Shown piece by piece: positions 4,464-61,869 of a stretch of DNA of 64,000 nt. How positions within the stretch are numbered: the first letter of the stretch is position 1; every line of letters begins with the position of its first letter. Source of the stretch: Camelus ferus (Eukaryota); NCBI RefSeq assembly GCF_009834535.1, contig NC_045696.1, forward strand, positions 34,970,001 through 35,034,000, given 5' to 3'. The translations under genes were made by a program, and so were the position numbers. The notes under the pieces are model-generated. The model made no database searches, was not told where the DNA came from, and was given only the letters and a program-made list of their open reading frames with translations.

Positions 4464-4996
4464 TTTTCTGTTTGCTTAGCTTTTGAAAAGTTTTTTTTAA
4501 TTTTTTTTATTGAAATGCAGTTGATTTACAATATTAGTTTCAGTTATACAGCAAAGTGATTCGGATATATATATATATATATACACATACATACATACAT
4601 ATATTTTCAGTTTCTTTTCCATTATGGCTCATTATAAGAAATTGAATATAGTTTCTTGTGCTATACAGTAGGTCCTTGTTTTTTATCTATGTTATATATA
4701 GTAATGTGTATCTGTTAATTCCAAACTCTTAATCTATGCCTCACTCTCCATTCCCCCACTGGTAACCACAGTTTGTTTCCTATATCCGTAAGCCTATTTC
4801 TGGAATGGATAAAGAAGATATTCCATTATGTGTATATACACACACATAAAAAAGAATGAAATAATACCAATTGCAGGAACATTGATGGACCTAGAGATTA
4901 TCATACTTAGTGAAGTCAGACAGAGAAAGGGCAAATATCATATGATATCACTTATATGTGGAATTCTAAAAAACAGATACAAATTTTATTTACAAA
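4464..4996 (-). mobile_element. Artiodactyl-type L1, 5'-truncated with 5' inversion
   Basis: 4464-4803 is the T-rich tail plus L1 3'UTR on the minus strand; 4804-4996 is the ORF2 C-terminus on the plus strand (KKNEIIPIAGTLMDLEIIILSEVRQ); TSD tcctttatattctt (4450-4463) / tcctttgtattctt (4997-5010). Confidence 0.9.
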
Positions 4997-20668: not shown

Positions 20669-20875
20669 TTTTGCAGATACTAACTCCTATATATAAAACA
20701 GATAAACAGCAAGTTTCTTCTGTAGAGCACAGGGAACCATATTCAATGTCTTGTAGTCACCTACAATGAAAAAGACTATGAAAAGAAATATGTATGTGTA
20801 TGTATGACTGAACTATTATGCTGTACATCAGAAACTCACACAACATTGTAAACTGTACTTCAGTTAAAAAAAAAA
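20669..20875 (+). mobile_element. Young camelid/artiodactyl-type L1 3' end nested in L1ME
   Basis: ttgcagatactaact...agcacagggaaccatattcaat...gctgtacatcagaaactcacacaacattgtaaact + A10 tail; same family as 39508-40110. Confidence 0.9.
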
Positions 20876-21234
20876 GTGGTGGGGAAAATTAAATTAACTA
20901 GAACTCCATCGGAGACAATTTAACAGGAAATATCAGATGAAATTTATGTAATCATAAACTCCGAAATTTAAATCACTATAATGTACCCCCGAGAAACTCT
21001 TGCACATGTACATAGGGAGATATGTACCAGGATGGTAATAGAAACAATTTTTTATTTACACCATTATATACAGTATTTCACAGTAAAAGTTAATGAACTG
21101 AAACTGTGTTAATATCTCCAAAATACAATAATGAATGAAGATATAGATGCAGAAGGAAATATCCAATATGATACCATTCACGTAAAATTTAAAGTAAGTT
21201 AAACATCATATACTATATTACCATCAGCCTGTTA

Positions 21235-37900: not shown

Positions 37901-38600
37901 GGAAGTTTTTCCCTATTACCAGGAACAAGGCAATCTTATCATGCTTTTTCTAAAACTTATATAGAAAAGCACATATCCTGGAAGAGATAAAACAATATTT
38001 AGTAAGAATATGGTAGGAGAAAATATTCTACTTTTTAATATTAAGGCTTACTCTATAGCTACCTAGTCAAGGTAGTGTGATATTGGTGGAGGGACGGTCA
38101 CAGAGATCAATGAAACAGAGAAAACAGTTCAGAAATAGATGCACAAAAATATCTTCACCTGATTTTTTATAAAGGTGCAAAAACAATTCCATGAGGGAAG
38201 TATAACCTTTTCAATAAATGATATTGAATTAATTGTACACCCGGAGGCAAAAACAAAACGAAACAAAACACCACCACAACAAAAAACAACCTTTGACCTA
38301 AACCTCACACTTTATACAAAAATTAACTAAAAATAGATCATAGTCTTAAATGTAAAATTAAAACTATAGAAGGTTTAAAAAAAAGTGGGAGAAAATCTTT
38401 AGAATCCAGGGCTAGGCAAAAAGTCCTTAGATATGACACCACAAGCATGATTCATCAGCAGGGAGAACTGACAAATTGGACCTTTTCAAAACTGAAAGTT
38501 TTTGCTCTGTGAAATCTCACGTGAAAAGGATCAGAAGACAAGCTACCAACTGGGAGAAAATATTTGCAAACCACATATCCAACAAAGGGCTAGAACCTAG
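34962..38600 (+). mobile_element. L1MD/L1MC-type LINE-1: 5'UTR, partial ORF1, ORF2 with two internal deletions, no 3' end
   Basis: 5'UTR start (caagattgtgtagac...cacaactataaaact); ORF1 (ttaaagcaggctttataaaaatgcttcaa, gaacttgaggacagatcaacagaa); ORF2 (gatggttttactggaaaattctac, ccaaggatgcaa...caacattc, tgggagaaaatatttgcaaaccacatatc). Confidence 0.9.
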
Positions 38601-38705: not shown

Positions 38706-38769
38706 AGGGGGCTCCCTCTTGTGCTTATGATACAAAGGAAATCATATGTACCATGTCTTCCATTCTTGA

Positions 38770-38960
38770 GATTATGCCTTCTGTTTCTACTTAAACTAGT
38801 CATCTAGTGGATTACAGTAGTATGTTTTATGTGAAATCAACCTTGCATTTCTAACATAAACACAGCTTGGTCGTGAAGTGTTCTGTTGTTTTATATCGTG
38901 ATGAATTTTTAACATTGTTAAATCAATTTTTGTTAGTGAAACTGGCCATATGCTAAGCAG
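38770..38960 (-). mobile_element. Old L1 ORF2 fragment (pre-RT region)
   Basis: aatcaaccttgcatttctaacataaacacagcttggtcgtga = reverse of the HDQVGFIPGMQGWF region. Confidence 0.65.
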
Positions 38961-39029
38961 ACTTTTTCCCTGAGTTTTAGTATCCAATAAAACATCTGTG
39001 TAATGTTTATCCAATATTTATCCACTGAC

Positions 39030-41040
39030 TTACACTGATAGCAAGAACACAGAAAATGCAGAATAATCTGAAGTATTGGCGAAGGAACAACAAAAAAAAT
39101 TAACTGTGGAAGAGAAGAGTGAGCTCAGAAATGGATTCATGTGAGTATGTGAAGTTCGTAGATAAACACCATAAAGCTATGGATAAAAATGAATTACTCA
39201 GTGCATGAAATGGGGAAACCAGCTTACTCAATGAAAAAAAAAAAAAAAAGAACCTGGCTCCTTATATCTTATCTAAATAAAGATAATTAAAAATGTAAAT
39301 GTGAAATAGTCTCTACTGAATAATACAAAAAAAAAAAAAAAGACACGCAGTAGAGTATTTTTGTCACTTACTCAAGGGAGTAGAGGAAAGGTGCGTAAAC
39401 AAACACCCAAATATAGAATATAGAACTTTAAAAAGTCATGCATTTGACAAAGTTAAAATTAACATTCAAGGTTCATTGAGGAATACAAAAAAAAAACCTA
39501 ACAAATGACAGATACACACACCCGAGTGTTCATAGCAGCACTATTTACAATAGCCAAGACATGGAAACAACCTACAAGTCCATCGACAGATGACTGGATA
39601 AAGAAGCTGTGGTATATTTATACAATGGAATACTACTCAGCCATAAAAAAGAATAAAATAATGCCACTTGCAGCAACATTGATGGACCTGGAGATCGTCA
39701 CTCTAAGCCAGAAAGAGAAAAAAAAATACCATATAATATCACTTATATGTGGAATCTTAGAAGAAAAGAGAGGGACAAATGAACTTATTTACAGAACAGA
39801 AACAGACTCACAGACATAGAAAGCAAACTTCTGGTTACCAGTGGGGAAGGGGATGGGAAGGGATAAATTGGGAGTTCTAGATTTGCAGGTACTAACTAAT
39901 ATACATAAAATAGATAAACAACAAGTTTATACTCTATAACACAGGGAACTATATTCAATATCTTATAGTAACCTATGGTGAAAAAGAATATGAAAACGAA
40001 TATATGTATGTTCCTATATGACTAAAGCATTGTGCTGTACACCAGAAATTGATACAACATTGTAAACTGACTCTACTTCAATAAAAAAAAAAAGAAAAGA
40101 AAAAAAAGAAAATACATTAAAAATATTTAAGACTGACAAAGGAATATTCTACAGGCTACATAAGAAATTGCTGCCTAGCAATCAGGGAGCATTTTGTAAA
40201 CCCTAATTTAAAAAATTATGAAGGGTTTAGATAGTTCCTTCTACAGGAGAAATCCGAATGGCTAACTAAAGAATAAAGAAATGCTCACATTCCCTGATAA
40301 TCACAGAAAGTCAAAGTGAAACAATGAGCTATATCTTCCACCTACCCAGATAAGAAAAAAAATTAAAATGTCAGATAAAGTAGTATTAACAAGGATGTGG
40401 GAAAATGAGAATCTTTGAGAGTAAAGTACTATGGCTTTCTGGAGAGCAATTTGGCAGCACTTAACAAGATTAATTATGTGTGTATACTGTGACATGGCAA
40501 TTCTGTGCCTGTGGATCTGTCCCTGAAAGCATGTTTACAGGTCCACGAGGGGACACGCACAAGGCTGTTCACCACGGTGTCTTTGTGAACGTAGAGCACT
40601 GGAGGCAGCCTGGGTGGCTAATGGGTAAGGAAAACGTGGTGGCCGCTTAGCTGTGCACACTGTGCAGCGGTTAGAAGTCTCTAGGTCGACTAGGTCTCCA
40701 TGCAGCAGCAATGCTCTTACAGCTTCATGCATCACAAAAACTTAGGAAACAGATGTGTTCTGTAGTATACTATTTTAACATAAATTAAAGCACTTACATG
40801 TAAAAGCAACAACATGTGTTTTTCATTGGTACTTACAAATATAAAGGTACCTACTAAAATACATTTTAGGGGGGCAGTAGGGCTGTAGCTAAAGCAAAGT
40901 GACAATGATGGTGGAGGAAATGGAAAGATAATAGCGAAATAAAGTGAAAGAAGAAAAGGACCTTACATGGTTCTATCATGTACCATGGACCGAGGAGCTG
41001 GATTATCTCAACTCTTTGAATCTGGGATTTCTCTGAAACA
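39030..41040 (+). mobile_element. L1ME3-like LINE-1 ORF2 3' part and 3' UTR (interrupted at 39508-40110)
   Basis: cagaaatggattcatgtg, actgacaaagg, aaggatgtgggaaaatgagaa, tttctggagagcaatttggca, gcagcggttagaag. Confidence 0.75.
39508..40110 (+). mobile_element. Young camelid-type L1 3' end (copy A)
   Basis: ORF2 C-terminus FIAALFTIAKTWKQPTSPSTDDWIKKLWYIYTMEYYSAIKKN, full 3'UTR and A-rich tail. Confidence 0.95.
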
Positions 41041-41049
41041 AATTAATAA

Positions 41050-41700
41050 TAAACATTAACTCAAAGATATATAATTATTTCTCTATACGAATGGAAGAAG
41101 TTAAGGAAAATGGTGGATAATATATAGGACTCAAGGGAATGTGAAGAAATTACTTATTTCACGCATTGATAATTGGAATGGCTATTAATGCAGATTTTGG
41201 AAGAGTGGACTTTCATTGCAATAAAATATTTAAAATATATGTTTTAAATAATTTTTTTCTTTAACCACAGCAAAAGCTAAGTAATGAACCATTCAACTCT
41301 TGTAGGTATCTCTCCTTAACAGGGGCATCAGACAACTATATTTATTATAGTTTCTTTGCAAAGGAGAAAAATGAAATATAATCACAAATATTCACAAATT
41401 CATAGGTTGCTAAATTAATTGAGATACATGTACCCTGTATAATAACAGACAACTATACAAAATAAAATTGATTCACAAGTAGTGACATAAATATATTGCT
41501 TAACATACTATTAATTGTGAAAGAAATCAATCATTAAATCATCCACACAGTATGACACCCATTATGATAAAATAACTGATATAAGACAAGACCATTTGAA
41601 TATACATATGGAAATGCAGAGCAGCAATATGAATGAATATTCATTAACCTGATATTAGTTGCTGTGTATAAAAGGTCAATAGGGCTTAACTAGACATTTC
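41050..41700 (+). mobile_element. Very old L1ME 3' fragment
   Basis: ggaatgtgaagaaat, gattttggaagag, attcaactcttgtaggtatct, cacagtatgacacccatt. Confidence 0.5.
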
Positions 41701-41759
41701 TAGTGTGTCTTCTTGTATCTCACATGCATGTATTCATGTGTATTCATTTGTATTCTTGA

Positions 41760-41996
41760 AAAGAGGTTTTTCAATTAAATAAGTTTGAAAATTAATCCAA
41801 AGTAATTCTTTCTCTTAGAAATTTAAAATATACATGAGCTCATTAGAATTGGGAGATACTCTGCAGCCCAATAGTATTTTGAAATTTGTTTAGTCAGCGT
41901 GTCCTAAATTAACATTCTTTTCTCCCCTTCAGAACAGCTAGTGACCATTTTTCCTGTAGACAACAATATGTTCTAAAAACCAGTTTAAGAACACTG
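41760..41996. mobile_element. hAT-Charlie (Charlie4-like) DNA transposon remnant
   Basis: aaataagtttgaaaa...tttctcttagaaatt...ctctgcag...tttgtttagtcagcgtgtcctaaatt...tgttctaaaaaccagtttaagaacactg. Confidence 0.5.
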
Positions 41997-42481
41997 ACAG
42001 AGGAATAGAAAGAAAATAAGGGCTAGACGGAAGCAAAACAAGATTCTAATTTTTAAATTATTACTATGATTCAGTATAAAACTTTTGTCTGAGCTTCCTG
42101 CCAGCTGAGAGAATATCAGCTGTGTTATATTAGATTACTTCTGATTTCTTTTATCAAGAGAAGGAATGAGTTCTGGGTAAACAAAGTTTATCTTAACACT
42201 AAATTCTGAAAGAAACGTCAAATTTGGTGGATTATGCAAATGCCACTGAATCTTCAGTTGGGAACATCTTTTCAGCATCATGACATTTGTTCAGGTTTGA
42301 ATGTAGCTGTAGATTACAACTTAATAGAACTGTTTTATCTGCATTAAAAATACCGAACATCATTGTTAGCTCTCATTAGTCAAATTATGAATGAATGAAA
42401 CTCAAAATGCCCAGAGGAGTGGACAAACATCATGCTTCTCATAATCTAGACTACTATACACGAGAATGATGTTTTTGAGTC

Positions 42482-42570
42482 ACCATCCATCCATCCATTG
42501 ATTGCGAAGGAGCATTTTTTCGTCAAGAACTCTGTACCAGGCACCGTGTGGAGAATACTTGAACTCAGTA
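42482..42570 (-). mobile_element. L2 3' terminus
   Basis: (CCAT)n followed by ctctgtaccaggcaccgtg. Confidence 0.55.
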
Positions 42571-42894
42571 TCTGCTGTTGCATTGCTCTCAGCCTGTGCA
42601 TCTTTCTGAATGTAAGTACTAGTCACCAGAAGTAAGCCTGAAACATCAGGAGGCCCCAAAGCGACTAAAAAGAGCCTCACTCTCAAAATCAGTAAATTTG
42701 GAAAGCTGCTTTTCTACAGCTGCTGTTAAGTACACCATGTAATAACTTAAAAGGTCAAATTCTTTTATCTATGGAGACCAAAAAGAAAGGAGAGGAATTA
42801 TATTTAAGGCCAAAGTAATGATTTCTATTGCTAAAAATATTTCTTCCTGAAATCCTTATCCTGTATCATATAGATACCGTTTGGTTTATTGATC

Positions 42895-43125
42895 ATAATA
42901 GTATCAGTATTCATAAGCATTGATATACATTCATCCGATGGGCCAGACACTGGACCAGTCCCTTTACATGCACCCTCACTTCACCCTGGGCGAGGTGCTA
43001 ACTTCCCTCTACTTTACAGTGAAGTTAAGTGATCAGGGAGAGATGAAGTGGTTACCAAGTCGCAGAAATAGTGAATGAGTATTGGCAACCTGACCCCAGA
43101 GCCCACACATTTCCCTCAACATTTG
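42895..43125 (-). mobile_element. MIR SINE
   Basis: gccagacactg...ctttacatgc...actttacagtgaag...gagagatgaagtgg...ctgaccccagagcccac. Confidence 0.75.
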
Positions 43126-43319
43126 CACTTATATCAGTCTTTTCAAATAGTAACAATTCCACTCCACTCTGAGGTCACTACTAGAAACAGCTTCCACGAA
43201 GTCGACATTCTATGAAACCATACCAGCTCATTTCTGTTTGTAATCAGTGAGGTCCTAGGTGACAAGACACTCTGAGTTGGGGAAAATTGGAGGAGTGGAA
43301 GGTGACTTTGCTAGCGGGC

Positions 43320-43363
43320 ATTCCTGACTTTATGTGAACGATTCCTGACTTTATGTGAACGAT
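43320..43363. repeat. Perfect 21-bp tandem duplication
   Basis: attcctgactttatgtgaacg x2 (43320-43340, 43341-43361) + at. Confidence 0.95.
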
Positions 43364-45844
43364 GCTCGGCGCTTTGGGGTCCTGTAGCTCAACTTTCGTC
43401 TGGCTTTGAGGGCATGAAGCCTTGCTCTTGCTCTCTCCACCTGCTTTACTTTTTCTCCTCATTGTTCCAAAGATAGGGGTACATTCTGTATGGCCGTGCC
43501 CAATGTAAGCGCTTATTTTAGACCTCAGAGGTCACAGTGTCTCAAATGTGGTATTTGCTATTTTTCTGTAACTGGTAATTTTCCCATAGACTCCTGGGGG
43601 TTGGCTCTACCCTGTCATCTGTCATTGCCCTAGGAAATGATCAACCATTTTCCCCCTTAACCACTAAGACAATGGGAAAATGTTTGTTGGCTCTTTCCTT
43701 TGAAAGTAACTAAAGACATGCAAATGAGAGTTACAAACACCACCACCACCAACAAAACCACCTTAGGCTATAAGAATTGCAAAGGTTTATTTATATTGTG
43801 TTTTTTTCCTTTCTGGTGAACAGTTGTTAACCACAAAAACTACATATATCTTAAGTGTTTTATTTTCAAATATCCATCTGGTTCAGTTGTTTTATGTACT
43901 TACTTTTCCCCTTGGGGCACTTACTCTATAACAATGCATGGATAATTACTTCCGCGAAGCCTCCTGCAGTGATGTAACAGCTACACAAGCTAAAAGATGG
44001 TTTTCAATGGAATAAAGCAATCCTAAGGATCACAGACGCGCTCTATAATCAATATCGTACAACTTCTGAATGGGGCACAGAAGTGAGAGAAAAGCCCTTG
44101 TCAAAAACCAAACACACGAAAGGCCCTTTTACTTCTCCCTGTGGTAGAAAGACTTTCAATGATTAGATAAAAGCAGAAAACTTGTTCAGATTCTCTAGGG
44201 TGTGTTATGATCACTTGGTATTTTATGTGCAGAACAATGCTTGGAAATAGCAGAAAGCTTAATCGATGTTGTTACAGTGAATTGCATCTTTACACAGTCA
44301 ATGTGTAGCTCTATGAAGAGAAGTTAAACCAAACAAAATGTATACATTTAAAAAAAGTATTAATTATTATTTTCCCAAATATGTCTTAGGTTTTCTTCCA
44401 TAAGCATATTTTTCTTCAAGAAATAAAAATAATTTAAAAAACAAAATGAATAAAATAAGACATCTTCCCATTCCTTTCTGTTTTCTGGACTTTTATTTCT
44501 TTCCCAAGATTTAGTTCTAGTGTTGTTATCTCTGAGAAGTATTTATTCCCTTACTCTTTACCCTCTTTTTTGACTAGATCGAATGTTTTTTCCTCTGTAA
44601 TCTGATAGATTCTTACCAAATTAATATGATAAATAAACTTATACTTTATCCTGGGTTTTGGTTTATAAACCTACCCCTTTGCCCTGTAAATCCAGTTAAT
44701 TCTTGGAATGTGTTTTATTCATGATTATTTTCTCTACCTTTCCTTGTCAGGCACTTTGCATGTAGTAACTGTTAAAAACAAGGCTATTGTCAAAATAAAG
44801 CAATTCATCAGCTGAGTAATGATACAGCATTACTCATATAATAACACTTTGTTGATGTTCAAACCCATGTTCCCTAAACTTGAAATAGTTTGGATTACTT
44901 TTCATTATGTGAAAAACCATCAGGGGCAGTGCAAATAATTAGGATTATATTTTATATGATCGTGTAAATTCCACATAGAGATTTTCCAGTGTTGTAAGCC
45001 AATCTTTCAGACAAATTTTGAAAGAAAGTTTAGGTTACTTAAAATGAGAGAAGCATCACCAAATACTTTGAAGAAACTAAATTCTGAATGTCATTTCTTT
45101 GAATATTTCTCATAATCAGCTTTTCTCTAATCTCAACCAATGCAATCTTTAATAATAGATTTCTCTGATAAAAAAATTGCAGTGACCACACCACCGCTCA
45201 TTTTATAAGGCAGATTTGAAAGTATTCCATCTTTATTAGACCACTAAATGACTATTCAGAGCAAGGCCATATAAAACCTATATCTGTTAATCCAACATAC
45301 TGTGCAATCGAATTCAATTACATTTCCCCAAGAGGCCAATTAGGATTTTCCCATTAAAACTTTTATTTAAGTTGTTGCATGGGTAATATATCATGGTACC
45401 TGGAAAGAGAATTTTGGATTACTAAGTGCAATCAGCTCTAACTGTGTTGCAAAGTAGTTGTAAGTTAATGTGTATGGTGACAATAAATATTGTTTGACTA
45501 CTCATAAGCAGAAACATAAAAAAGTAAAACTTTCTGCAGCTTAATGAAATTTCGCAATGATGTTGACCCATGTCACAATGTACTTCCTTTTTCTTTTAGA
45601 CTCGAATGTGGGATACATAGTTTACAATGCGAAAATTTAAGTTAATGAGGAACCCTTCCATTAACAAAGCACATTTGAGTGTGAGTCTTAAGTAAAAATT
45701 AAGTTTGTAAATCCTTGATGTCCAAAAGGTTGATCATATATTCATGGATGGAGCAACTTAACATCATAAAGATGCCAACGCTATTAATATTTAGATATAA
45801 ACGAACAGCAAATTTAGTACAAAATGCCAGAAGAATTTTAAGAC

Positions 45845-46966
45845 TTTTTTTTAACTGAAGTATAGTCAGTTTACACTGTTGTGTCAATTTCTGGTGTACA
45901 GCATGATAGTTCAGTCATAATATACATACATATATTCATTTTCATATTCTTTTTCATTATAGGTTACTACAAGATATTGAATATAGTTTCTGTGCTATAC
46001 AGTAGAAACTTGTTTATCTATTTTATATATAGTAGCTAGTATCTGCAAATCTCGAACTCTTAATTTATCCCTTCCCCATTTCCCTCCCCCGCTGGTAACC
46101 ATAAGTTTATTTTCTATGCCTATGAGTCTGTTTCTATTTTTTAAATAAGTTAATTTGTGCCTTTTTTTTTTAGATTACACATATATGTGGTATCATATGG
46201 TATTTTTCTTTCTTTTTCTGGTTTACTTAGAATGACAATCTCCAGGTCCATCTATGTTGCTGCAAAGGGCATTATTTTATTCTTTTTATGGCTGAGTAGT
46301 ATTCCATTGTATAAATATACCACAGCTTCTTTATCCAGTCATCTGTCGATGGACTTGTAGGTTGTTTCCATGTCTTGGCTATTGTAAATAGTGCTGCTAC
46401 AAACATTGGGGTACATGCATCTTTTCGAATTAGAGTTCCCTCTAGACATATGCTCAGGAGTGGGATTGCTGGATCATATGGTAAGTCTAATTTTAGTTTT
46501 TTTTGAGGCATTTCCATACTGTTTTCCACAATGGCTGCATCAAACTACATTCTCACCAACAGTGTAGAAGGGTTCCCTTTTCTCCACAGCCTCTCCAGCA
46601 TTTGTCACTTATGGACTTTTTATTGATGGCCATTCTGACTGGTTGTGGTGATACCTCATTGTAGTTTTGATTTCCATTTCTCTGATAATTAGCGATATTG
46701 AACATTCTTTCATGTGCCTATTGGCCATATGTATATCTTCATTGGAGAAATGCTTATTTAGGCCTTCTGCCCACTTTTGGATTGAGTTTTTTTTATTATT
46801 ATTAAATTGTATGAACTCTTTACATATTCTAGAAATCAAGCCCTTGTCATTCTCATTATTTGTAAATATTTTCTCCTATTCTGTAGGTTGTCTTTTTGTT
46901 TTGCTTATGGTTTCCTTTGCTATGCAAAAGCTTATAAGTTTACGTAGATCCCATTTGTTTATTTTT
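45845..46966 (-). mobile_element. Young camelid-type L1 3' 1.1 kb (copy B)
   Basis: ORF2 fragments [10 protein letters not shown]...[35 protein letters not shown] and MENSME...LPYDPAIPLL...CTPMFVAALFTIAKTWKQP; 3'UTR and T-run at left. Confidence 0.95.
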
Positions 46967-47277
46967 GGACCTTCTTGATACACTCAGTCTATAAAGGAAA
47001 AGACTCACCCATAGCTAAAGTAATTTTTGTAAAATTAGAGAAAAATGGTAAGATTTACTCCCATCCTCAATATAAGGTTACAATAATTATGATAGTCTTA
47101 ATGATGTTAGTATGAAGATAAATAGACCAATGTAACAGGATATTTCAGAAATAGTACTTACTATAAATGTGAAGTTAGCATGTGATAATGGTGGTAAGAT
47201 AAATCTGTTGACAAAGGATTCATTTTTAGTCAGCTTTGTGGGGAAAATACACTTGTGCATCTAACACATGCCATATA

Positions 47278-53979: not shown

Positions 53980-54008
<29 letters not shown>
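53980..54008. repeat. Poly-T tract (29 nt)
   Basis: Uninterrupted T run. Confidence 0.95.
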
Positions 54009-54012
<4 letters not shown>

Positions 54013-59273: not shown

Positions 59274-60030
59274 TTTTTTTTTTTTTTTACTAAATTTTAT
59301 CTATTCATTCTTTTTAAAAATGAAGTATAGGTGATTTACAATATTGTGTTAATTTCAGGTGTACAACAGAGTGATTAAGTTAATTATTTTCAGATTATAT
59401 TTTATTGTAGGTTGTTATAAGACATTGAATGTAATTCCCTGTACAGTACAGTAAATTCCTGTTGCTTGTCCATTTTATGTATAGTAGTTTGTACCTATTA
59501 ATCTCATACTCCTAATTTGTCCCTCCCTAACCCCCTTCCCCTTCGGTAAATATAAATTTGTTTTCTATGTCTGTGTGTGTTTCTGTTTAGTATATAGATT
59601 CATTCATATTATTTCTTAGATACCATACATAAATAATATCATATAGTATGTCTTTCTCTCCCTCACTTACTTCATTAAGCATAATATTCTCTAAGTCCAT
59701 CCACGTTTCTGTAAATGACATTTCATTCTTTTATGACTAATGCTCCATTGTGTGTGTGTGTGTATATATATATATATGTGTGTGTATATATATCACAGCT
59801 TCTTAAGCTAATCATCTGTTGATGGGTCCTTGAGTTGTTTATATGTCTTGGCTTATCATAAACAGGGCTGCAGTGAACACTGGGGTGCATGTATCTTTTG
59901 AATTAGAGTTTTTGTCTTTTCTGGATGTATGTCCAGGAATGAGATTGCTAGATATGGTAACTGTTTTTAGTTTTTTAAGGAACTTCCATACTATTTTCCA
60001 TAGTGATTACACCAACTTACATTCCTACCA
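59274..60030 (-). mobile_element. Artiodactyl-type L1 3' end with an internal (TG)(TA) microsatellite
   Basis: T-tail; gaagtataggtgatttacaatattgtgttaatttcaggtgtacaac; gctgcagtgaacactggggtgcatgtatcttttgaattag; ttttttaaggaacttccatact. Confidence 0.9.
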
Positions 60031-60459
60031 AAAATGCTCTGATATATTATCCATGCTTATACATTTAATTCTGATACTAATAAAATTTTGATAGACATAA
60101 AAGCAAATAAAACATGTGACCATTTCTAAAATGCAGCAACCTTGAAGCAAAAATTATTATAAATATGCAAATAATTTGTAATCAGTATTTTGGAAGAGTG
60201 TTTAAATGGAAATTGTAACAGGGCTTCACTTTCCTTAGGGAGGATGCTTTTTGGAATAGAAGGAATTAAGAAGGTGTTTGGCAGAAGGAAATAAAGTAAC
60301 ATTTTAGACAATGTAACAAGTTTATTACAAATGCCAGGATACAGTACAAAAACTTGAGTCCTGAGTGATGAAACCAGAAGAGATTTTTTTTTTTAAAAAG
60401 GTAAATATACTGGTTGCAGGCAGTGCAAAAGTAGTGCATAAAAATTATTCAGCCTCTGG

Positions 60460-61795: not shown

Positions 61796-61869
61796 AGTCA
61801 TCAGTTAAATATGCCAGATGAAGAGTTTGTGATGGAGAACACTTGCTGGATCAAAACCAAGAGCGAAAG
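61796..61869 (+). other. Candidate 74-nt internal exon (host gene unknown)
   Basis: Acceptor catcttctttcaactttatctgcag| and donor AAG|gtaagc; one frame open (SHQLNMPDEEFVMENTCWIKTKSE); no recognised homology. Confidence 0.3.

What the first reader, a model, noticed from the sequence alone, without database searches (positions are those of the whole stretch)
39533..46399. 117-bp perfect-identity tract between two diverged inverted L1 copies: apparent local gene conversion
Seen in sequence: 39533-39649 (+) is exactly the reverse complement of 46283-46399 (117 bp). After a 1-nt A-run indel another 15 bp are identical. Immediately outside the tract the copies differ strongly (gatacacacacccgagtgttca vs gatgcatgtaccccaatgtttg upstream; roughly one difference per 8-10 nt downstream, by eye). 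At ~10% divergence the chance of a given 117-bp run with no mismatch is about 0.9^117, ~4e-6. The tract keeps a CpG (catcgac). Both copies read cctacaagtcc (KQPTSP), where L1 ORF2 normally reads KQPKCP. The host L1ME flanks of each copy remain collinear, so the intervening ~5.7 kb was not inverted. Inference: non-crossover, non-allelic gene conversion between neighbouring inverted repeats, which would also make this a candidate inversion-polymorphism site.
Basis: partly seen in the sequence, partly recalled or inferred. Interest (0 to 1): 0.7.

Follow-up and report, generated by a model that had tools for sequence, protein, structure and literature searches.

The report
Copied patch between two inverted L1s
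Two long-dead copies of the L1 jumping gene that face each other about 6 kb apart share one letter-perfect 117-base patch, most likely because one was recently used to repair the other (gene conversion), a known and ordinary process, though an assembly error has not been ruled out.

Summary
39533-39649 is the exact reverse complement of 46283-46399. The two 5'-truncated L1 copies differ at 62 of 423 columns downstream and 8 of 23 upstream, but at 1 of 133 across the tract; permutation P is about 2-5e-6. The tract region is only slightly more conserved among unrelated L1s (0.74-0.84 of flank variability), too little to explain it. Best reading (0.65): a recent non-allelic, non-crossover gene conversion between the neighbours; direction unknown. 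Three things stay open. No read or second assembly confirms the tract, and published 'Alu conversions' have proved to be assembly errors (PMC8230782), so artefact keeps 0.20. The shared KQPTSP change is rare in other mammals' L1s (1 of 107 peptides), but no L1 of the host's own lineage was available. The tract is slightly closer to the family norm than either copy. 'Not inverted' is only partly shown, and nothing supports an inversion polymorphism. The scan noted the same kind of event on other DNA (e1-7855527). A new instance of a known process; low interest.

The parts
39510..40112 (+). Copy A: 5'-truncated L1 (end of ORF2, 3' UTR, A-rich tail); homology to copy B spans 39510-40091
   Evidence: blastn and pairwise alignment; tblastn with L1 ORF2 peptides; A-rich tail 40083-40112. 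No target-site duplication recognised by eye (print-out).
45845..46973 (-). Copy B: 5'-truncated L1 of about 1.13 kb, tail-to-tail with copy A; ORF2 remnant with frameshifts and a stop
   Evidence: frameshift at the A-run and a stop just downstream seen in translation
39533..39649 (+). Identical tract in copy A (widest bounds 39533-39665); matches about residues 1198-1236 of L1 ORF2p, C-terminal domain
   Evidence: residue numbers counted from the alignment of P0135 to PDB 8sxt_A and tblastn of P0135
46283..46399 (-). Identical tract in copy B (widest bounds 46268-46399)
39575..39577 (+). Two shared bases (39575, 39577; 46357, 46355 in copy B) that give T-S where other mammalian L1s read K-C
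   Evidence: shared by 1 of 52 fetched loci, and that one is an alignment-edge artefact; T-S in 1 of 107 peptides with the motif; state in the host's own L1 family not tested
39510..39532 (+). Unconverted 5' tip of copy A: 8 differences in 23 bases, among them two CA-versus-TG pairs (39517-39518, 39531-39532) that look like independent decay of an ancestral CpG on opposite strands
   Evidence: the CpG reading is inference
40092..45844 (.). Spacer of 5753 bases between the two 3' ends; would be the flipped segment in an inversion
   Evidence: 40150-45800 is held at 0.92-0.99 of sampled words by 18 of 24 listed runs; no Rfam match; longest stop-to-stop frame in 40700-45650 is 95 aa
45842..45850 (+). 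Target-site-like 9-mer at the 3' end of copy B, 7 of 9 identical to 46968-46976
   Evidence: weak, T-rich
46968..46976 (+). Target-site-like 9-mer at the 5' end of copy B
40230..40613 (+). Old, decayed L1 ORF2 C-terminal remnant that hosts copy A (3' side)
Evidence: nhmmer E 1.3e-4; weak tblastn hits on + strand, E 1e-4 to 0.05.
46990..47232 (+). Old, decayed L1 remnant that hosts copy B (right side)
   Evidence: local alignment to the old L1 at 37958-38217, z 4.6 on + against 0.8 on -

Best explanation
Copies A and B are independent, dead L1 insertions that had drifted about 13% apart. Recently a break in one copy was repaired on the other, about 6.6 kb away on the same or sister chromatid (a fold-back brings inverted copies into register). 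About 45-133 bases were copied one way and the intermediate was resolved without crossover, so the spacer kept its orientation. Shown: the identity, its sharp edges, the excess over chance, the old divergence on both sides. Inferred: that the donor was the neighbour, non-reciprocity, non-crossover outcome, synthesis-dependent repair as the route, and recency (0 substitutions in 132 bases bounds pairwise divergence at 2.2%, under a fifth of the background). Direction is not determined. The tract has no function; it is a repair scar.
For: 1 event in 133 columns against 62 in 423 downstream and 8 in 23 upstream; P 2-5e-6. The ORF2-coding part outside the tract is also diverged (10 of 91), so coding conservation is not the cause. 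A third in-window copy is 16.4% from A and 8.9% from B over about 195 bases where A and B are 12.1% apart, so A and B are not a recent duplicate pair. Among unrelated L1 loci the tract region varies 0.74-0.79 as much as its flanks (575 and 32 pairs); at 0.75 the chance of 0 in 117 is 1.2e-6, at 0.5 still 1.3e-4. Longest identical run among 14 unrelated pairs at 80-97% identity is 59 (four same-locus pairs set aside, one of them in this identity band). Both copies share two adjacent changes that are rare elsewhere. The distance lies inside the <10 kb range of raised Alu conversion (PMC6598467 part 2, PMC8230782 part 1; both cite Aleshin and Zhi 2010, which I did not see).
Against: No read, contig or second assembly confirms the tract in either copy. 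No L1 of the host's own lineage was found, so the shared changes may be family states; one unrelated peptide (P0114) has the same KQPTSP. The tract carries fewer rare bases than either copy elsewhere: 3 of 132 against 35 of 596 in B (Fisher p 0.063) and 6 of 115 in A (p 0.18); at a looser threshold 5 of 132 against 65 of 596 (p 0.006); the region effect of 0.84 removes part of this. A converted tract should carry the donor's full load of private changes. Experimental conversion drops sharply near 80% identity and needs about 200 bases of identity to be efficient (PMC3924818, passages); these copies offer runs of 20 or less outside the tract. No orthologue shows the unconverted state.
Confidence: 0.65

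Rival explanations
1. Assembly, gap-filling or polishing artefact: the sequence of one copy (or of the family majority) was written into the other over roughly one read length.
For: The tract (117-133 bases) is about a short-read length. Its layout, 42 family-like bases, a block with the rare bases, then 37 or more family-like bases, is what a chimeric path through a k-mer graph would leave; two clean 30-base ends are not very unlikely for such a pair (rough figure 0.02-0.35). The tract has a mild deficit of rare bases. Of 12 apparent Alu conversions in one gorilla assembly only 5 were seen in another, and a later assembly held none of those unique to the first (PMC8230782 part 3).
Against: The window has no N and the neighbouring spacer agrees with 18 runs at 0.92-0.99 of sampled words, though that says nothing on the tract itself. 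Copies 13% apart normally attract their own reads when both are assembled (inference). A majority overwrite would give the family's common state, and T-S is rare in all L1s seen.
Confidence: 0.2
2. Chance plus family states: both copies simply kept the family sequence over this stretch, and the 'shared variants' are subfamily diagnostics.
For: The region is somewhat more conserved than its flanks. Only 3 rare bases are shared in the tract against 2 in the 92 ORF2 bases downstream, and two of the less common tract bases (39607, 39615) are also in the older copy at 59305-60031, so they are lineage states. Camelid genomes hold about 350,000-400,000 L1 fragments (PMC8605555, passage), so many neighbour pairs are on trial.
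Against: Needs a local pairwise rate of 8% or less to reach even 2e-3 per pair; the measured rate is 11-15% on both sides. Unrelated pairs reach 59 at most.
Confidence: 0.05
3. A third, younger L1 (genomic copy or cDNA) converted this stretch, and the change reached both copies, directly or through a second local conversion.
For: The tract looks a little younger than either copy. cDNA-mediated conversion is described for yeast Ty and Tf2 (PMC6598467 part 2).
Against: Needs two events; the deficit is borderline after the region correction; no donor was found.
Confidence: 0.05
4. The tract is the conversion scar of a crossover: the spacer was inverted (once, or back and forth) with the exchange point in the tract.
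For: The copies are inverted and the spacer (5753 bases) is close to the median size of human L1-mediated inversions, 5,487 bases (PMC9675761, passage). Two of four flanks could not be oriented by tools. An even number of flips leaves flanks collinear.
Against: Copy B keeps a 7-of-9 target-site-like pair; the A 3' flank and B right flank are both + strand old L1, and by eye the flank translations follow ORF2 order (compared with recalled ORF2). Such inversions involve copies of median 97.1% similarity (PMC9675761).
Confidence: 0.05

Closest known systems
Non-allelic gene conversion between neighbouring Alu copies (Aleshin and Zhi 2010, not seen; as reported in PMC6598467 and PMC8230782)
   Same: Dead retrotransposon copies under 10 kb apart; part of the element made identical; sharing of non-diagnostic changes.
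   Different: L1 rather than Alu; a non-primate genome; copies 87% alike, a little under the 89-100% optimum quoted in PMC8230782; single locus with no orthologue check.
Partial Alu-Alu conversion found by orthologue comparison (Doronina et al. 2021, PMC8230782)
   Same: Only part of the element is replaced, giving a mosaic copy.
   Different: They proved donor and direction with orthologues and rejected single-assembly cases as possible errors; this case has not passed that filter.
L1-mediated inversions by non-allelic homologous recombination (Balachandran et al. 2022, PMC9675761)
   Same: Oppositely oriented L1 pair around a spacer of about 5.5 kb.
   Different: No exchanged flanks shown here; similarity 87% against a median of 97.1%.
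Conversion among LTRs (Trombetta et al. 2016, as reported in PMC6598467; conversion between the two LTRs of one element in camelids, PMC8605555)
   Same: Short tracts copied between retroelement repeats; in camelids detected with the same run-length logic (GENECONV).
   Different: LTR pairs belong to one element or family of LTRs; here two independent L1 insertions.

Membership tests
Non-allelic gene conversion between transposable-element copies | Two paralogous copies at different places, diverged since independent insertion | tested here: met
   13-15% apart outside the tract; a third copy is as close to B as A is
Non-allelic gene conversion between transposable-element copies | A bounded segment far more alike than the rest, beyond chance and regional conservation | tested here: met
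Non-allelic gene conversion between transposable-element copies | Shared derived changes that are not family states | tested here: inconclusive
   rare in other mammals' L1s (the DNA loci were picked by motifs that include K-C, so they are biased); no host-lineage copy covering the site except one much older copy, which reads K
Non-allelic gene conversion between transposable-element copies | One-way transfer: acceptor changed, donor unchanged, against an orthologue or other alleles | not testable with these tools
   no genome held for the window; no look-alike stretch among other scanned windows
Non-allelic gene conversion between transposable-element copies | No exchange of flanks (non-crossover) | tested here: inconclusive
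   7-of-9 target-site-like pair and two flanks on + strand; two flanks unresolved
Non-allelic gene conversion between transposable-element copies | The tract exists in the animal's DNA, not only in one assembly | not tested
   only the spacer was matched to public runs; the tract itself has no read-level confirmation
L1-mediated inversion (NAHR) | Homologous L1 copies in opposite orientation | tested here: met
L1-mediated inversion (NAHR) | Chimeric copies with exchanged flanks, or two orientations among individuals or species | tested here: inconclusive
   what signal there is points to unexchanged flanks; no population data
5'-truncated LINE-1 insertion | Homology to the ORF2p C-terminus, then 3' UTR and A-rich tail | tested here: met
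   Pfam gave no family for either peptide
5'-truncated LINE-1 insertion | Target-site duplication | tested here: inconclusive
   7 of 9 around copy B; none recognised around copy A (print-out, by eye)

The most novel reading that the evidence does not exclude
The pair is a live recombination substrate although it is 13% diverged and offers no long identity: the tract is the seed left by a first conversion, it now gives 117-133 bases of perfect homology, and the 5.75-kb spacer flips or re-converts recurrently in present-day camelid populations, so a segregating inversion could be caught at its birth.
Probability: 0.05. Interest if true: 0.45.

Novelty: new member of a known kind. Interest (0 to 1): 0.2.

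Why it matters
If real, it is a clean single example of dead L1 copies exchanging sequence at 87% identity, at the low edge of the range where conversion is reported, in a lineage where my searches listed no L1-L1 case. It warns that divergence-based dating of neighbouring repeats can mislead, and it lengthens the perfect homology between two inverted copies from 20 to 117 bases, which could favour a later inversion. No gene or RNA was shown to be affected. If it is an artefact, it marks a type of local assembly error worth screening for. Neither outcome changes current understanding.

Tried and rejected
No genome is held for this window, so a genome-wide count of the variant was not possible. 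A host-type DNA motif found 0 stretches in metagenome and viral contigs; an alignment of database peptides found 43 metagenome loci, 0 viral and 12 genome-contig loci, none of the host's lineage (tract identity at most 0.90, 3' UTR at most 0.80 where 80 or more bases aligned). A peptide from copy B upstream of the tract found 14 proteins, none with the host-type motif. Two apparent counter-examples fell: locus L040 seemed to read T-S but translates K-C, and the older copy at 59305-60031 seemed to share 39575 and 39577 only at the lowest gap penalty. Four locus pairs with long identical runs (L027/L028, L010/L012, L013/L018, L005/L008) were set aside as one locus seen in two samples: they align at 93-99.7% over 785-1717 columns; for L005/L008 this is my judgement. 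Six loci (L012, L028, L008, L018, L055, L040) were dropped, leaving 49 of 55. Orienting the flanks by DNA alignment to other old L1 pieces worked for two of four; a profile of six in-window pieces gave at best E 0.28; flank peptides against PDB gave no L1 hit and the fetched peptides did not cover those ORF2 parts. Direction of transfer could not be read: in ORF2 the copies carry similar numbers of derived bases (A 9, B 8), in the 3' UTR A has more (26 against 9). Rejected: recent duplication of one copy (old divergence on both sides, different 5' ends); conversion at the time of insertion (the tract would have decayed since); a functional RNA (no Rfam match); the retained CpG as evidence (one site). 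The six organism-C runs held next to none of the words and were not used. Supplements of PMC8605555, which might hold camelid L1 consensus sequences, could not be read.
Full report
What is there. The window is mammalian DNA without N. Earlier scan notes on the same genome call it a camel genome (AI notes, not checked by me), and no whole genome is held. Two 5'-truncated L1 copies face each other tail to tail: copy A at 39510-40112 (+) and copy B at 45845-46973 (-), with 5753 bases between their 3' ends. Both lie inside much older L1 remnants. The tract falls in the last part of ORF2, about residues 1198-1236 of the solved L1 ORF2p (counted).

The observation. 39533-39649 equals the reverse complement of 46283-46399 at 117 of 117 bases. 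A one-base A-run difference and 15 more identical bases follow, giving 1 event in 133 columns. Upstream there are 8 differences in 23 columns, downstream 16 in 103, 24 in 159 and 22 in 161. The whole alignment has 71 events in 579 columns and its next-longest identical run is 20. The bound on a run this long by chance is 2.4e-6, or 5.4e-6 with the gap placed left; 1 of 500,000 permutations reached 117.

Is the region simply conserved? Only a little. The ORF2-coding part just downstream differs at 10 of 91 bases plus a gap. I fetched 55 L1 loci from public contigs (43, 12, 0); none is of the host's lineage, and they were picked by peptide motifs inside the tract, which favours conservation there. 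Even so the tract region varied 0.74 as much as its flanks over 575 pairs and 0.79 over the 32 pairs with 8-20% flank divergence, and 0.84 by a rare-base count over 22 loci. At 0.75 the chance of no difference in a given 117 bases is 1.2e-6. In direct alignments of 471 pairs among the 39 loci spanning the tract, four pairs were set aside as the same locus in two samples; the 14 remaining pairs at 80-97% identity had a longest run of 59. A third in-window copy (20670-20876) is 16.4% from A and 8.9% from B where A and B are 12.1% apart, so A and B are not a young duplicate pair.

The shared variant. Both copies read T-S where 112 and 109 of 120 related peptides read K and C. By a motif-anchored count T-S occurs in 1 of 107 peptides (motif found in 107 of 120; the one is P0114), 0 of 3 (3 of 14) and 0 of 54 (54 of 150). 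In DNA the two bases were shared by 1 of 52 loci, and that one (L040) is an edge artefact that translates K-C; this DNA set is biased towards K-C. The older in-window copy at 59305-60031 reads K there once gaps are penalised but shares 39607 and 39615, so those two are lineage states, not private changes. My recollection is that the camelid L1 family also reads K-C; that comes from no call.

A result against the simple reading. A converted tract should carry the donor's private changes. Counting bases found in at most 10% of 49 loci (six dropped, see Tried and rejected), the tract has 3 of 132, copy B elsewhere in ORF2 35 of 596 (Fisher p 0.063) and copy A 6 of 115 (p 0.18). At 25% the figures are 5 of 132 against 65 of 596 (p 0.006) and 6 of 133 against 12 of 115 (p 0.06). 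The region effect (0.84, measured at 10% only) removes part of this. The deficit can arise if conversion starts where the copies were already alike and the true tract is shorter than the identical run; run-based methods do not give true tract ends (PMC3924818, passages). It is also what an overwrite by family-like sequence would give, in the cell or in the assembler.

Artefact. This rival is open. Eighteen of 24 listed runs from 6 studies hold the spacer 40150-45800 at 0.92-0.99 of 593 sampled words, six of them marked as possible sources; that supports the spacer, not the tract, for which I have no read-level evidence. The tract is about one short read long, and its layout (42 family-like bases, the rare block, 37 or more family-like bases) fits a chimeric path through a k-mer graph; a rough estimate that such a pair offers two clean 30-base ends is 0.02-0.35. 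Doronina et al. found 12 apparent Alu conversions in one gorilla assembly, 5 in another, and none of the unique ones in a later assembly (PMC8230782, part 3 read). Against it: copies 13% apart usually keep their own reads, and a majority overwrite should not produce a state that is rare in every L1 set seen (inference). I put it at 0.20.

Inverted or not. Copy B has a 7-of-9 target-site-like pair at 45842-45850 and 46968-46976. The 3' flank of A maps to + strand ORF2 (E 1.3e-4) and the right flank of B to + strand old L1 (z 4.6). The 5' flank of A gave z 2.1 at best and the left flank of B nothing clear. By eye their + strand translations follow ORF2 order, judged against recalled sequence. 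So the evidence leans to unexchanged flanks without proving it, and cannot exclude an even number of flips. Human L1-mediated inversions have a median size of 5,487 bases, like this spacer, but a median similarity of 97.1% (PMC9675761, passages). Nothing here shows a polymorphism.

How it most likely works. A break in one copy was repaired by copying from the other, which a fold-back of 6.6 kb brings into register; the new strand returned and no crossover formed (inferred from established repair pathways). The 5' edge is sharp: two CA-versus-TG pairs just upstream point to separate decay of each copy (inference). Zero substitutions in 132 bases bound the pairwise divergence at 2.2%, that is at most about 2.2 million years at the rate quoted in PMC8605555, against 11-14 million for the copies; a slower rate stretches both alike. 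Direction is unknown: A and B have 9 and 8 derived bases in ORF2 outside the tract. Experimental work finds conversion much reduced near 80% identity and efficient only with about 200 identical bases (PMC3924818, passages), so this would be a rare event, but shorter cases are allowed there.

Comparison with what is known. It works like conversion between neighbouring Alu copies, which is raised within 10 kb (PMC6598467 parts 1-2 of 4 read; PMC8230782 parts 1 and 3 of 4 read; the primary paper, Aleshin and Zhi 2010, was not held). For membership, two defining features are met, two inconclusive, and one-way transfer and presence in real DNA are untested. The listings of eight searches showed no paper on this locus or on L1-L1 conversion in camelids; I saw listings and abstract starts only, and the library lacks most subscription journals. 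PMC8605555 (passages; supplements not readable, and they may hold camelid L1 consensus sequences that bear on the variant) reports conversion between LTRs in camelids.

Verdict. Observation confirmed; interpretation partly supported. Local gene conversion 0.65, artefact 0.20, chance 0.05, third donor 0.05, crossover scar 0.05. New member of a known kind; interest 0.2.

Noticed in passing
window 4491-4992: An L1 3' end on the - strand (4491-4802) abuts an ORF2-end piece on the + strand (4816-4992), the layout of a 5'-inverted (twin-primed) insertion.
   Followed up: no
window 43320-43363: A perfect 21-base tandem duplication (2.1 copies, 100% match) inside the spacer; recent duplication or assembly slip.
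   Followed up: no
window 39758-40082 against 45853-46171: In the 3' UTR copy A carries many more derived bases than copy B (26 against 9 by fetched loci; 17 against 4 by the copy at 20670), while in ORF2 they are level. A may be of an older subfamily, or B's 3' end may have been homogenised earlier.
   Followed up: partly
window 39704-39712 and 46219-46230: Both copies are shorter than the two older in-window copies at the same spot just downstream of the tract, A by more than B; possibly a shared older deletion or repeated slippage.
   Followed up: no
window 38750-39000: By eye an old L1 ORF2 fragment in antisense orientation inside the + strand old L1; not recovered by nhmmer.
   Followed up: partly
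window 61796-61869: Exon-like 74-base stretch between a pyrimidine tract with AG and a GT donor (by eye); gene not identified.
   Followed up: no
L044-L053: Ten short contigs filed under named bacterial genomes carry mammalian L1 ORF2 fragments, which looks like host or laboratory contamination of those assemblies.
   Followed up: no
window 53980-54009: A run of about 30 T, the longest homopolymer seen in the window.
   Followed up: no
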